Below, piece by piece: positions 21-2,004 of a stretch of DNA of 64,000 nucleotides. The notes beneath the pieces are model-generated. The model made no database searches and was not told the origin of the DNA. It saw only the letters and a list, made by a program, of their open reading frames with translations. The first letter of the stretch is position 1. Each line of letters opens with the position of its first letter. The stretch is from Escherichia phage vB_Eco_T-01. Location of the stretch: sequence record PQ438391.1; one strand, written 5' to 3'. Both the position numbers and the translations under genes were made by a program.

Positions 21-1022
21 ATGACTCGTAACGAATATATCAAATCATTCAATAGCGTTATTGATGATAAAGCTATACCGATGTTTGGTCAAAATATCGT
101 TCTTTCTATTATCAATCAATGGCTCAATAGTGTTGATGCAAGTATTGTTTCTTCTACTAAATTTATTCATGAAATTCGTAAAATTTCTAGCCGTGTAGAT
201 AAAGATGTTATCAAGAAAACCTTTAAAGAGTCTCGTCTTCTTTCATATTTGGTTAATCGGGATATTCTTGGTAATTTTGGGAAAGAAATTAAACGAACCA
301 AAGATGTAGTAGGATATAATTGGTTCGGTGATGTTAATTCTTATCATCTTAATAATAAAGAAGACCCTGAGAATATTTTTACTCGTCGTTGGATTAGTAA
401 TTTCAGACTTTTCAAAGGACAGATTCTAAAATCAGCTTCTAAATTATGTTATGGCGATTATCGTCAAATTCATCCTTTGGCTTCTGATATGATTATCATA
501 AAAGAATATGAACTTGATAAAAATAAAGTATCTATTTTTGTGAATTATGGATTTTTTACACCAGAAACTAACCAAAAGAACATTAATAAATTTTTCTCAA
601 TTGCTAGCACTATAACTCGTCAATTAGAGACCGCATTACTTTGTATGGAAACAGTAGAAAATATTCATACATATCCTTTTAAGAATATATGCGGCTGGGA
701 AGGATATAAAATTGTAATTAGTCTTCGTGAAGTGAAATGTACTTATTCACCTACTAGTAAAGAAATTTACCAACAAAAATGTGATGAAATTGTGAATACT
801 CCTAAAGAAGAAACTACCCTTGAGGAACTAATGGATAATCTTGATGATTCGCCTGAACCGGCAGAAATTCGTCCAGAAGTTATTGCACTAGAAAAAGCTT
901 ATAAAGAAGTTCTAGAAATTTCTAATAAAGCGCAGAAAGAATATGAGCAGGCTAAAAAGATTTGGGAAGAATCCGTTAATCGTCTTGATCGTCTTGAACA
1001 AGCTTTACAGTTAATTAAGTAA
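21..1022 (+). CDS. hypothetical protein with C-terminal coiled coil (accessory ORF upstream of nrdC)
   Basis: 333-aa ORF; GAGGAG RBS about 8 nt before ATG; N-terminus resembles next ORF. Confidence 0.7.
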   Translation: MTRNEYIKSFNSVIDDKAIPMFGQNIVLSIINQWLNSVDASIVSSTKFIHEIRKISSRVDKDVIKKTFKESRLLSYLVNRDILGNFGKEIKRTKDVVGYNWFGDVNSYHLNNKEDPENIFTRRWISNFRLFKGQILKSASKLCYGDYRQIHPLASDMIIIKEYELDKNKVSIFVNYGFFTPETNQKNINKFFSIASTITRQLETALLCMETVENIHTYPFKNICGWEGYKIVISLREVKCTYSPTSKEIYQQKCDEIVNTPKEETTLEELMDNLDDSPEPAEIRPEVIALEKAYKEVLEISNKAQKEYEQAKKIWEESVNRLDRLEQALQLIK

Positions 1023-1074
1023 TTTAAAGCCAAGGATGGCTCGGAGTATAAACCATTAACCAAGTGAGAAGAAT

Positions 1075-2004
1075 ATGAAAACTCGTAAACATTATATTGA
1101 TTATTTTGACAGTCTTATTACTAAACACCGTAATTATCAGATCGGGCACAGAGCAGTAATCAATAATATTCTTCGTGATTTCCTTCAATATGTTGGTCAG
1201 GAAAATCATATCTGTAAAGATACTCAAAACGCTTATTCTCATTCGTTAGGCAATTTGCTTGAATGGTTTAAACGTTCTCGTATGTTATCTTCTACTGTAG
1301 CTCGTGAGAACATTAAAAACTTTATGAAGCCGAGCTTCATTAAATCTGAGACATCTATAACCGATTTGGTTGAATTTACTATTGTTAATGATGTTAAAAA
1401 GACCCATTTGGCTGATTGGTTATCTACCATTCCTGAAACTAAATTTGCTGATAAGTTCGCTTGTCAATTCAATGACCAAGTGAATATGCTTTTTAAGCAT
1501 GCTCGTAAACTATTTACCGCGGGCGATGACCGTACAAATACAGTTCATGCTAAGGACTGGGTTATTGCTGATGAAGTAACACACAAGCCAGGTGGTTCAT
1601 CAGTATTAATTAATATCCAGGTTCCTTATTATTACTCACGTAATCTTGGCACCATGACAGCTAAAGAAATTAATAAGCACAACAAAACTATTCGTTCGTT
1701 GTCTTATAAACTCCGCATGATGTTAAAAATTATGGACGTAGTGGAAATGTATGACGAAACCGAAGATAATGGTTCAATGTTATACAGTTCACGCATTCTA
1801 ATTAAACTGAAGAACCCTAATACATATAAGACAGTTGTAAAAGAGTCTAAAGTAGAAAAGGTTGATAATCTGAGTGAAGAACGTGAATATCTCAATGCCC
1901 GTTTGATTGAAGTTGAAGCCCAAATTGCAGAACACACCAAATTGTTAAAAGCTCTTAATGCAAAAGCAAATGGTTTACGTAATGCTATTGAGGTATTGAA
2001 ATGA
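1075..2004 (+). CDS. hypothetical protein with C-terminal coiled coil, paralog of preceding ORF
   Basis: 309-aa ORF; N-terminal motif (T-R-x-x-Y-I-x-x-F-x-S-x-I) shared with 21..1022. Confidence 0.7.
   Translation: MKTRKHYIDYFDSLITKHRNYQIGHRAVINNILRDFLQYVGQENHICKDTQNAYSHSLGNLLEWFKRSRMLSSTVARENIKNFMKPSFIKSETSITDLVEFTIVNDVKKTHLADWLSTIPETKFADKFACQFNDQVNMLFKHARKLFTAGDDRTNTVHAKDWVIADEVTHKPGGSSVLINIQVPYYYSRNLGTMTAKEINKHNKTIRSLSYKLRMMLKIMDVVEMYDETEDNGSMLYSSRILIKLKNPNTYKTVVKESKVEKVDNLSEEREYLNARLIEVEAQIAEHTKLLKALNAKANGLRNAIEVLK

What the first reader, a model, noticed from the sequence alone, without database searches (positions are those of the whole stretch)
21..2004. Tandem paralogs with coiled-coil tails at the start of the window
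The ORFs at 21..1022 (333 aa) and 1075..2004 (309 aa) share an N-terminal pattern (MTRNEYIKSFNSVI / MKTRKHYIDYFDSLI). Both end in a roughly 40-residue heptad-like coiled coil (…EYEQAKKIWEESVNRLDRLEQALQLIK / …[33 protein letters not shown]). They are followed by a zinc-ribbon ORF. No function is evident.
Basis: seen in the sequence. Interest (0 to 1): 0.4.

Follow-up and report, generated by a model that had tools for sequence, protein, structure and literature searches.

The report
T4 nrdC.4/nrdC.3 paralogs, likely anti-defence
The two genes are the uncharacterised phage T4 early genes nrdC.4 and nrdC.3, true diverged duplicates that share a fold and a coiled-coil tail, are distantly related to the neighbouring gene nrdC.5 (which disarms the bacterial Dsr1 defence), and are therefore good but unproven candidates for further anti-immunity proteins.

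Summary
Window 21..1022 is T4 nrdC.4 (333 aa) and 1075..2004 is nrdC.3 (309 aa) in a Tequatrovirus genome.

- **Paralogy.** BLASTP gives 26% identity over 226 aa (E 1e-7). Profile-profile comparison gives 98.4%. Both belong to PHROG 1435 and Pfam PF26897.
- **Structure.** Both AlphaFold models show a basic helical plus alpha/beta head and one long C-terminal helix. Each tail has a conserved, statistically significant heptad repeat.
- **Larger array.** The pair is the visible end of a larger array. nrdC.5, just upstream of the window, is a remote homologue (HHalign 85-97%). nrdC.6 shares the fold only by a single Foldseek hit.
- **Distant phages.** Structural relatives with similar tails occupy the same slot in distant T4-like phages.
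- **Gene behaviour.** The genes are non-essential. They evolve 3-10 times faster than their neighbours (dN/dS about 0.2), are allelically diverse, and are naturally deleted or fused.
- **Neighbourhood.** They sit between experimentally shown anti-defence genes: nrdC.5/Dsr1, nrdC.1/Septu, an nrdC.8 ortholog/Druantia III, and gp49.2/OLD.

The most likely function is an oligomeric inhibitor or decoy of a host defence protein whose target is unknown. This is inferred, not shown. The genes and their family are already catalogued. The link to nrdC.5 and the head-plus-tail reading appear to be new.

The parts
9..14 (+). Shine-Dalgarno GAGGAG of nrdC.4. It contains GGAG, which from my own knowledge is the motif cut by T4 RegB.
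   Evidence: Read directly. It lies 6 nt before the ATG at 21. This supports the 333-aa start over the 343-aa upstream start used in some database entries.
21..1022 (+). ORF1 = T4 nrdC.4 ortholog (333 aa, 38.9 kDa), a member of PF26897 / phrog_1435.
   Evidence: It is 97.9% identical to T4 nrdC.4 in U76612.1.
27..725 (+). NrdC.4 head: N-terminal helical bundle (aa 3-84) plus an alpha/beta domain (aa 88-235, strand/helix order EEE-H-EE-H-EE). The head is basic (pI 9.0-9.6).
   Evidence: AF2 model with pLDDT 80.9, charge calculation, conserved motifs TRxxYIxxF, FKxSRLLS, DV, GDxR and LxxMxxV.
738..872 (+). NrdC.4 linker (aa 240-284): acidic and largely disordered, with two short predicted helices at low confidence. 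It is absent from NrdC.3.
   Evidence: pLDDT is below 50 at residues 260-282. Net charge is -8. The alignment shows a gap in NrdC.3.
873..1019 (+). NrdC.4 C-terminal heptad-repeat helix (aa 285-333), the most conserved part of the protein.
   Evidence: Homologues whose heads are 20-33% identical keep tails 63-76% identical. dN/dS is 0.04 in the tail, against 0.13-0.31 in the other three regions.
1066..1071 (+). Shine-Dalgarno GAGAAG of nrdC.3, in the 52-nt spacer between the two genes.
   Evidence: Read directly.
1075..2004 (+). ORF2 = T4 nrdC.3 ortholog (309 aa, 35.9 kDa), a member of PF26897 / phrog_1435. In the loci examined this extra copy was seen only in Tequatrovirus genomes.
1084..1809 (+). 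NrdC.3 head (helices at aa 4-81, alpha/beta domain at aa 86-245), with the same order of secondary-structure elements as NrdC.4.
   Evidence: AF2 model with pLDDT 80.8.
1870..2001 (+). NrdC.3 C-terminal heptad-repeat helix (aa 266-309).
   Evidence: The tail stays 80-93% identical in alleles whose alpha/beta domain is only 46-47% identical.
2001..2390 (+). nrdC.2, a zinc-ribbon ORF (129 aa) translationally coupled to the preceding gene through an ATGA overlap.
   Evidence: The same 4-nt overlap follows the single PF26897 gene in the 9 loci that lack nrdC.3 (L009-L017) and in a metagenomic contig.
2393..2635 (+). nrdC.1 (context only). The T4 ortholog is reported to inhibit the Septu defence.
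   Evidence: bioRxiv 10.1101/2025.11.20.689424.

Best explanation
**What it is.** Window 21..2004 holds the T4-type early accessory genes nrdC.4 and nrdC.3. They are two diverged tandem duplicates of one T-even-phage gene family (Pfam PF26897, PHROG 1435).

**Architecture (shown).**
- Each protein has a basic globular head made of a five- to six-helix bundle plus an alpha/beta sandwich.
- Each ends in one 43-48-residue C-terminal helix with a conserved heptad repeat.
- NrdC.4 has an additional acidic disordered linker between head and tail.

**Larger array.**
- nrdC.5 lies immediately upstream of the window and is the experimentally identified T4 counter-defence gene against the SIR2 effector Dsr1. 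It is a remote homologue of the head (probable).
- nrdC.6 shares the fold (weaker evidence).
- All four families have heptad tails ending in L-x-x-A-[LI]-x-[LVA]-[LI]-[KN]; the motif is looser in nrdC.6.

**Mechanism (inferred).**
- The proteins are made early in infection.
- They oligomerise through the tail.
- They use the fast-evolving head to bind and neutralise, or act as a decoy for, a host immune protein. Each paralog would cover a different target or target variant.
- Duplication, allelic replacement and head/tail recombination would supply the diversity.

**Target.** The target of nrdC.3 and nrdC.4 is unknown.
For: **Identity and paralogy.**

**Architecture.** Two independent AF2 models have pLDDT of about 81 and the same order of secondary-structure elements. 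Heptad periodicity is conserved.

**Homology to NrdC.5.**
- HHalign probability is 96.7% (E 3e-10, 232 columns).
- With heads only it is 89.5% (E 2e-6).
- Without the bridging sequence P0106 it is 84.5% (E 7e-6).
- Control genes nrdC.8, nrdC.10 and nrdC.11 score 0.4% or less.
- P0106 has a PF26897 head and an NrdC.5-like tail, 36% identical over 66 aa.
- The divergent NrdC.5 homologue P0164 begins MITREEFI.

**NrdC.6 and wider relatives.**
- Foldseek of the ORF1 model hits JS10 'nrdC.6' (E 2.2e-5, prob 1.0) and full-length 300-370-aa proteins of Acinetobacter, Klebsiella, Erwinia, Serratia, Pectobacterium and Citrobacter T4-like phages.
- In Acj61 a 330-aa protein, p120, and its neighbour p121 sit between nrdC and nrdC.10 and have similar tails. 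I take p120 to be the Foldseek hit E5E4A1 because the lengths match.

**Anti-defence neighbourhood (literature).**
- nrdC.5 counteracts Dsr1 (PMC9391042).
- Gp49.2 counteracts OLD (PMC13096335).
- nrdC.1 counteracts Septu, and the nrdC.8-position gene bas37_0203 counteracts Druantia III.

**Accessory-gene behaviour.**
- Transposon data class the genes as non-essential (nrdC.3 91/94 sites hit, nrdC.4 97/101).
- dN/dS is 0.20-0.27, against 0.02-0.08 for flanking genes.
- nrdC.3 has three allele classes among 653 phage records.
- Natural events include a frameshift (L008), a 2.6-kb deletion, and an in-frame NrdC.6-head/NrdC.4-tail fusion in phage Manna.
Against: - No experiment links nrdC.3 or nrdC.4 to any defence system.
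- In the three HIDEN-SEQ comparisons I could read, insertions in these genes had no effect: |log2FC| at most 0.31, adjusted p = 1. The paper's screens on clinical isolates did not highlight them.
- Homology to NrdC.5 is remote and depends on the profiles. The NrdC.3 family alone gives only 11-20% probability, and neither ORF hits Pfam DUF7235.
- The heads are basic, unlike the acidic DNA-mimic type of anti-defence protein.
- Oligomerisation through the tail is not tested.
Confidence: 0.55

Rival explanations
1. Host-takeover or nucleic-acid-binding factors unrelated to immunity. The basic heads would bind host DNA, RNA or an acidic host protein, and the tails would dimerise them. They would tune host physiology under conditions not met in the laboratory.
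For: - Heads have pI 9-10, with invariant Arg/Lys residues R3, K69, R72, R148 and K239.
- There is a weak sub-threshold hit to the integrase SAM-like DNA-binding domain (E 0.11).
- The genes are non-essential in K-12, like many T4 takeover genes.
Against: - No significant match to any DNA- or RNA-binding family.
- Fast evolution, allelic diversity and frequent loss fit an arms-race gene better.
- The one characterised relative, nrdC.5, and four neighbouring genes act against defence systems.
Confidence: 0.25
2. Decaying or functionless duplicates that hitch-hike in a hyperplastic genome region.
For: - The genes are dispensable.
- They are frameshifted in L008, deleted in ACG-C40 and fused in Manna.
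Against: - Intact full-length copies occur in 549 (nrdC.4) and 651 (nrdC.3) phage records.
- dN/dS is about 0.2 overall and 0.04 in the NrdC.4 tail, which indicates purifying selection.
- AF2 folds both confidently.
Confidence: 0.05
3. Thioredoxin-like redox proteins, as many GenBank records label them.
For: The product name 'thioredoxin' appears in many records.
Against: - No CxxC motif.
- No thioredoxin or glutaredoxin Pfam hit.
- The predicted fold is different.
- The label is evidently carried over from the gene name nrdC.N.
Confidence: 0.01
4. Virion or tail-assembly components related to tail terminator proteins.
Against: - Scores are below the level that indicates homology, and nitroreductases score the same.
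- The genes lie in the early region and are transcribed with early genes. From my own knowledge, T4 tail proteins are late genes.
- Every tail gene listed in the three table parts I read has no insertions in HIDEN-SEQ, whereas these genes tolerate 96-97% of sites.
- Neither protein has an (L/I)xE site near its N terminus, which from my own knowledge is part of the T4 capsid-targeting signal. This was read directly from the sequences.
Confidence: 0.03

Closest known systems
T4 NrdC.5 (Pfam DUF7235 / PF23882), the anti-Dsr1 counter-defence protein (Srikant et al., eLife 2022, PMC9391042)
   Same: - It is an adjacent gene on the same strand and of similar size (341 aa).
- It has a basic head.
- Its C-terminal heptad helix ends ...LNNALNALN.
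- It is non-essential and evolves fast.
- Profile-profile homology to the NrdC.3/4 family is 85-97%.
- Motifs are shared: N-terminal TR, AR(E/D)xLxxFxK, and LxxAxxYMDxV.
   Different: - It belongs to a separate Pfam and PHROG family. ORF1 and ORF2 do not hit DUF7235.
- The polar invariants of PF26897 (SRLLS, GDxR) are not conserved in NrdC.5.
- Activity against Dsr1 has been shown only for NrdC.5.
T4 NrdC.6 (phrog_2257)
   Same: - It is the next gene upstream, 296 aa, with a heptad tail (p = 0.004).
- Foldseek places JS10 NrdC.6 among the full-length matches of the ORF1 model (E 2.2e-5).
- Phage Manna carries an in-frame NrdC.6-head/NrdC.4-tail fusion joined at QQYDDEI/QQKCDEI.
   Different: - Sequence-profile similarity is not significant, at 34% or less.
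- The ORF2 model did not retrieve it.
DSAD1, the anti-DSR2 protein of SPbeta-like phages (PMC10981675, PMC10973363)
   Same: It is a conceptual analogue: a phage protein said to counteract a SIR2-type NADase defence (abstracts listed).
   Different: No sequence or fold relationship was found or tested. It belongs to a different phage group. It is cited only as the model for how an inhibitor of this kind works.
Tail terminator / tail completion fold (lambda gpU, DUF3168, SPP1 gp17-like)
   Same: The alpha/beta domain superposes over 90-118 residues with rmsd 2.9-3.3 A for the best matches.
   Different: - The helical domain and the tail are extra.
- The genes are early and non-essential, so these are not tail components.

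Membership tests
Pfam PF26897 (Phage_T4_Y04OP) / PHROG 1435 | Full-length significant match to the family profile. | tested here: met
   phrog_1435 matches at E 2.6e-168 (ORF1, 1-333) and 1.2e-115 (ORF2, 2-309). All close homologues of both ORFs carry precomputed PF26897. The local Pfam copy lacks this model.
NrdC.5 / DUF7235 (PF23882) anti-Dsr1 family | Match to the DUF7235 profile. | tested here: not met
   Neither ORF has a DUF7235 hit at E up to 1, whereas NrdC.5 itself scores 6.9e-120.
NrdC.5 / DUF7235 (PF23882) anti-Dsr1 family | Common ancestry detectable by profile-profile comparison. | tested here: met
   HHalign gives 96.7% (E 3e-10). Heads only give 89.5%. Without P0106 the figure is 84.5%. 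Controls score 0.4% or less. This is superfamily-level relatedness only.
NrdC.5 / DUF7235 (PF23882) anti-Dsr1 family | Neutralises Dsr1 during infection. | not testable with these tools
   This needs plaque assays on dsr1+ hosts with deletion mutants or ectopic expression, as in PMC9391042.
Coiled-coil proteins | Conserved heptad (a/d) hydrophobic periodicity in a long helix. | tested here: met
   Period-3.5 power exceeds shuffles (p < 0.0005 for NrdC.4, p = 0.017 for NrdC.3). AF2 predicts helices at 285-332 and 266-308.
Coiled-coil proteins | Forms homo- or hetero-oligomers through the helix. | not testable with these tools
   No multimer prediction was available. SEC-MALS or cross-linking is needed. 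The a positions Y/Y/W combined with d positions A/A/S in NrdC.4 are atypical (read).
Thioredoxin/glutaredoxin (GenBank label) | CxxC active site and thioredoxin fold. | tested here: not met
   No CxxC motif, no Pfam hit, and a different predicted fold.
[not shown]
   [not shown]
T4 internal (capsid-targeted) proteins | N-terminal capsid-targeting sequence with an (L/I)xE cleavage site. This definition comes from my own knowledge. | tested here: not met
   The N termini MTRNEYIKSF and MKTRKHYIDYF have no (L/I)xE in the first 20 residues. They form a confidently modelled helix 1 of the head, with pLDDT 87-94.

The most novel reading that the evidence does not exclude
NrdC.3, NrdC.4, NrdC.5 and NrdC.6, together with their structural relatives across Straboviridae, could form one ancient, fast-evolving superfamily of modular 'sensor-blinding' proteins.

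- A paralog-specific coiled-coil tail would assemble an oligomer.
- The variable head would imitate a conserved phage structural fold. The alpha/beta domain weakly resembles tail terminators.
- The head would then occupy, without triggering, the TPR-type pattern-recognition sensors of defence proteins such as Dsr1 or the Avs families. Those sensors are reported to bind major capsid, tail terminator and other virion proteins.
- Tandem duplication and head/tail recombination would let one locus cover several sensors.
Probability: 0.15. Interest if true: 0.8.

Novelty: new member of a known kind. Interest (0 to 1): 0.42.

Why it matters
T-even phages are the main model for phage counter-defence, yet most genes of the nrdC-mobD region still have no function.

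- **Candidates.** nrdC.3 and nrdC.4 share ancestry and architecture with nrdC.5, the anti-Dsr1 gene. That turns two anonymous ORFs into specific candidates for knock-out or expression screens against defence panels.
- **Mechanism.** It suggests that nrdC.5's unknown mechanism can be dissected as a variable head plus a conserved oligomerising tail.
- **Scope.** It hints that a much wider set of uncharacterised 300-370-aa proteins in T4-like phages of Acinetobacter, Klebsiella, Erwinia and Serratia belongs to the same functional class.
- **Annotation.** The 'thioredoxin' label on hundreds of GenBank entries for these genes is wrong.

Tried and rejected
- **Pfam, local copy.** Only sub-threshold noise: Med29 and DUF5789 for ORF1; PHL (21.2 bits against a cut-off of 23.7), integrase SAM-like and MksE for ORF2. 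I treat these as chance.
- **PDB by sequence.** Nothing below E 0.49.
- **PADLOC.** One 15-bit match of the ORF1 tail to a coiled segment of BrxC/PglY (E 0.001). I take this to be compositional.
- **afdb50 fold library.** It was not available, so cellular structural relatives were not searched.
- **Profile search of 1.84 billion representatives.** Only 11 hits, all members of the family or fragments of it. No relatives outside the family were found.
- **First coiled-coil test.** The single-sequence sliding-window score was no better than shuffles. I replaced it with a family-conservation periodicity test.
- **nrdC.8, nrdC.10 and nrdC.11 as further paralogs.** Rejected (HHalign 0.4% or less). 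The nrdC.8 tail has no heptad periodicity (p = 0.45).
- **Acj61p120/p121 against the family profiles by sequence.** No signal. Only fold, tail and synteny link them.
- **P0097.** This NrdC.5/NrdC.3 chimera joins non-equivalent positions, so it says nothing about homology.
- **HIDEN-SEQ tables.** Three comparisons were read. Only the lambda-lysogen comparison could be identified, from the rIIA/rIIB depletion. nrdC.3 and nrdC.4 showed no phenotype. The remaining sheets were not read.
- **Promoter scan.** Counts are no higher than in shuffles. One TG-extended TTTACT-17-TATAAT site lies just upstream of nrdC.4 in L001 5964-5992, outside the window.
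Full report
**1. What is in the window**

The window is a T4-like (Tequatrovirus) genome. Bases 1-2700 match 687 phage records, best Escherichia phage REP1 at 99.0%.

In the annotated relative vB_Eco_NR1 (L001) the ORFs correspond to these genes:
- 21..1022 is NrdC.4.
- 1075..2004 is NrdC.3.
- 2001..2390 is NrdC.2.
- 2393..2635 is NrdC.1.
- 2637..2900 is the NrdC glutaredoxin.
- Further downstream lie gp49.2, pin, endonuclease VII and NrdD.

ORF1 is preceded by GAGGAG and ORF2 by GAGAAG. The ORF2 stop codon overlaps the nrdC.2 start (ATGA).

**2.

Paralogy:
- BLASTP of ORF1 against ORF2 gives 26% identity over 226 residues, E = 1e-7.
- Both proteins match phrog_1435 over their full length.
- Their database homologues all carry the precomputed Pfam family PF26897, named Phage_T4_Y04OP.
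- HHalign between the two ortholog sets gives 98.4% probability.
- A joint alignment of 23 members shows invariant positions T2, R3, Y6, I7, F10, F68, S71, R72, D104, V105, G145, R148 and others. This confirms the shared N-terminal pattern.

Structure. AlphaFold2 models of both proteins have mean pLDDT 80.9 and 80.8. They show the same order of elements: five to six helices, then beta3-alpha-beta2-alpha-beta2, then a single long C-terminal helix at 285-332 in NrdC.4 and 266-308 in NrdC.3. NrdC.4 has an extra acidic, largely disordered linker at 240-284.

Coiled coil:
- A crude single-sequence heptad score was not significant.
- Hydrophobicity conserved across orthologs shows period-3.5 power above shuffles. 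The p-values are < 0.0005 for NrdC.4, 0.017 for NrdC.3, 0.001 for NrdC.5 and 0.004 for NrdC.6.
- The register is unbroken, and a/d occupancy is 0.77-0.88 against 0.21-0.27 elsewhere.

**3. The pair is the end of a larger array**

The genes just upstream of the window are similar in size and tail. nrdC.5 is 341 aa and nrdC.6 is 296 aa, and their tails end ...LNNALNALN and ...IVDLLKS.

Evidence for nrdC.5 as a remote homologue:
- Profile-profile comparison links the NrdC.3/4 family to NrdC.5 (Pfam DUF7235) at 96.7% probability, E 3e-10 over 232 columns.
- With tails removed the figure is 89.5%.
- Without the bridging sequence P0106 it is 84.5%.
- Control genes nrdC.8, nrdC.10 and nrdC.11 score 0.4% or less.
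- P0106 is a metagenomic PF26897 protein whose tail is 36% identical to the NrdC.5 tail.
- A divergent NrdC.5 homologue, P0164, starts MITREEFI, the family's N-terminal motif.

Evidence for nrdC.6. It is not significant by sequence, at 34% or less. However, Foldseek of the ORF1 model against BFVD returns 'nrdC.6 [phage JS10]' (E 2.2e-5, prob 1.0).

Wider relatives:
- Both models independently return full-length 300-370-aa uncharacterised proteins of Acinetobacter, Klebsiella, Erwinia, Serratia, Pectobacterium and Citrobacter T4-like phages.
- In Acinetobacter phage Acj61, p120 is 330 aa, the same length as the Foldseek hit E5E4A1. I take them to be the same protein on that basis.
- p120 and its neighbour p121 lie between nrdC and nrdC.10. 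Both have heptad-like tails ending ...LNKALEIMML and ...LAKALVV....
- At the sequence level the family is narrow. A profile search of 1.84 billion representatives found 11 proteins.

**4. Evolutionary behaviour**

Distribution:
- nrdC.4 occurs in 553 phage records and nrdC.3 in 653.
- In nine more distant Tevenvirinae loci (L009-L017) the order is nrdC.8-nrdC.6-nrdC.5-nrdC.4-nrdC.2. There is no nrdC.3, and nrdC.4 overlaps nrdC.2 by 4 nt. These loci include a VR25-like contig. Bp7 (Dhakavirus) likewise has nrdC.4 adjacent to nrdC.2.
- So nrdC.3 is an extra copy that, in the loci examined, I saw only in Tequatrovirus genomes.

Variation:
- nrdC.3 has three allele classes: 361 records at 90% or more, 208 at 60-80% and 84 below 60%. 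In the loci examined, the flanking genes remain 99-100% identical.
- The tail is the most conserved module. P0064 has a head 23-33% identical but a tail 76% identical. The nrdC.3 allele P0093 has an alpha/beta domain 46% identical but a tail 93% identical.
- dN/dS is 0.20-0.27 for nrdC.3, nrdC.4 and nrdC.5, against 0.02-0.08 for nrdC.1.2.8.10 and .11. It is 0.04 in the NrdC.4 tail.

Natural rearrangements:
- nrdC.4 is frameshifted in L008.
- ACG-C40 has a 2.6-kb out-of-frame deletion from nrdC.5 to nrdC.3.
- Salmonella phage Manna carries an in-frame NrdC.6(1-262)/NrdC.4(251-333) fusion.
- P0097 is an NrdC.5/NrdC.3 chimera.

**5. Functional context from the literature**

- T4 nrdC.5 restores infection of dsr1-carrying hosts (PMC9391042).
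- T6 Gp49.2 inhibits OLD (PMC13096335).
- T4 nrdC.1 inhibits Septu. bas37_0203, which by its coordinates is the nrdC.8 ortholog, inhibits Druantia III (bioRxiv 10.1101/2025.11.20.689424).
- The same study classes nrdC.3 (91 of 94 sites hit) and nrdC.4 (97 of 101) as non-essential.
- In the three comparisons I read, insertions in the two genes had no effect.
- I found no paper assigning a function to nrdC.3 or nrdC.4.
- The Dsr1 sensor is reported to be a TPR domain that recognises the major capsid protein. Other Avs sensors bind tail terminators (PMC12803255).

**6. Interpretation**

Shown:
- The gene identity and the paralogy.
- The shared head-plus-tail architecture and the conserved heptad tail.
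- Faster evolution than the neighbours, allelic diversity, dispensability and recombination within the array.

Probable: common ancestry with NrdC.5. Weaker: common ancestry with NrdC.6.

Inferred:
- The proteins oligomerise through the tail.
- They use the variable head to bind or decoy a host defence component.
- Each paralog covers a different target.

I put about 0.55 on an anti-defence role.

Weaknesses:
- There is no direct phenotype.
- The homology is remote.
- The heads are basic.

The 'thioredoxin' label in GenBank is an artefact. There is no CxxC motif, no thioredoxin domain, and the predicted fold differs.

**7. Novelty and score**

The genes, their family and their paralogy are already catalogued in Pfam PF26897 and PHROG 1435, so the bare observation is known. 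What appears to be new is:
- the link to the anti-Dsr1 gene nrdC.5;
- the multi-paralog head/tail architecture that recurs across Straboviridae;
- the natural head/tail fusion in phage Manna.

This makes the pair a well-motivated experimental candidate rather than a surprise. Interest is 0.42.

Noticed in passing
window 3296..3616 and 2393..2635: These ORFs are the gp49.2 and NrdC.1 orthologs. Their T6 and T4 counterparts were recently reported as inhibitors of the OLD and Septu defence systems. The first 4.3 kb of the window is therefore dense in anti-defence genes.
   Followed up: partly
L002 6215..7252 (Salmonella phage Manna): A natural in-frame fusion of the NrdC.6 head (aa 1-262) to the NrdC.4 tail (aa 251-333), with nrdC.5 deleted. 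The junction lies at a shared QQ..DEI motif.
   Followed up: yes
L018 3805..4216 (phage ACG-C40): A 2.6-kb deletion joins nrdC.5 codon 68 or so to the last 72 codons of nrdC.3, out of frame, across a 9-bp overlap. This phage lacks functional nrdC.5, nrdC.4 and nrdC.3.
   Followed up: yes
L008 9971..11003: nrdC.4 is split into two ORFs of 193 and 158 aa by a frameshift in one otherwise closely related viral contig.
   Followed up: no
P0099 and P0100: Two metagenomic proteins carry hydrolase or oxidoreductase Pfam domains and also contain short stretches 72-82% identical to NrdC.3 (11-19% of the query). They are probably assembly or gene-call chimeras.
   Followed up: no
window 2001..2390 compared with L002, L004, L009-L017 and L003: nrdC.2 varies widely in length (73-129 aa) between phages, yet it always starts with a 4-nt overlap on the preceding PF26897 gene. 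This suggests translational and perhaps functional coupling.
   Followed up: partly
L001 1607..2575 and 480..1490: NrdC.10 gives weak sub-threshold AAA/STAND-NTPase hits. NrdC.11 is an RlaP-type nucleotidyltransferase (Pfam E 3e-11). A strong bidirectional terminator hairpin follows nrdC.11 at L001 1492-1511.
   Followed up: no
window about 56000..64000: GC content rises from about 0.34 to 0.40 and GC skew changes sign. This is consistent with a switch in transcription direction or gene class at about 56 kb.
   Followed up: no
L019 14028..16322 (Acinetobacter phage Acj61): Another tandem duplicate pair, p076 and p077 (372 aa each, 54% identical), lies elsewhere in the early region. It is unrelated to the NrdC.3/4 family by HHalign.
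   Followed up: partly
L001 5964..5992 (just upstream of window position 1): A TG-extended sigma-70-like site, TTTACT-17-TATAAT, lies in the nrdC.5-nrdC.4 spacer. It may be nrdC.4's own early promoter. Overall promoter-like counts do not exceed shuffles.
   Followed up: no
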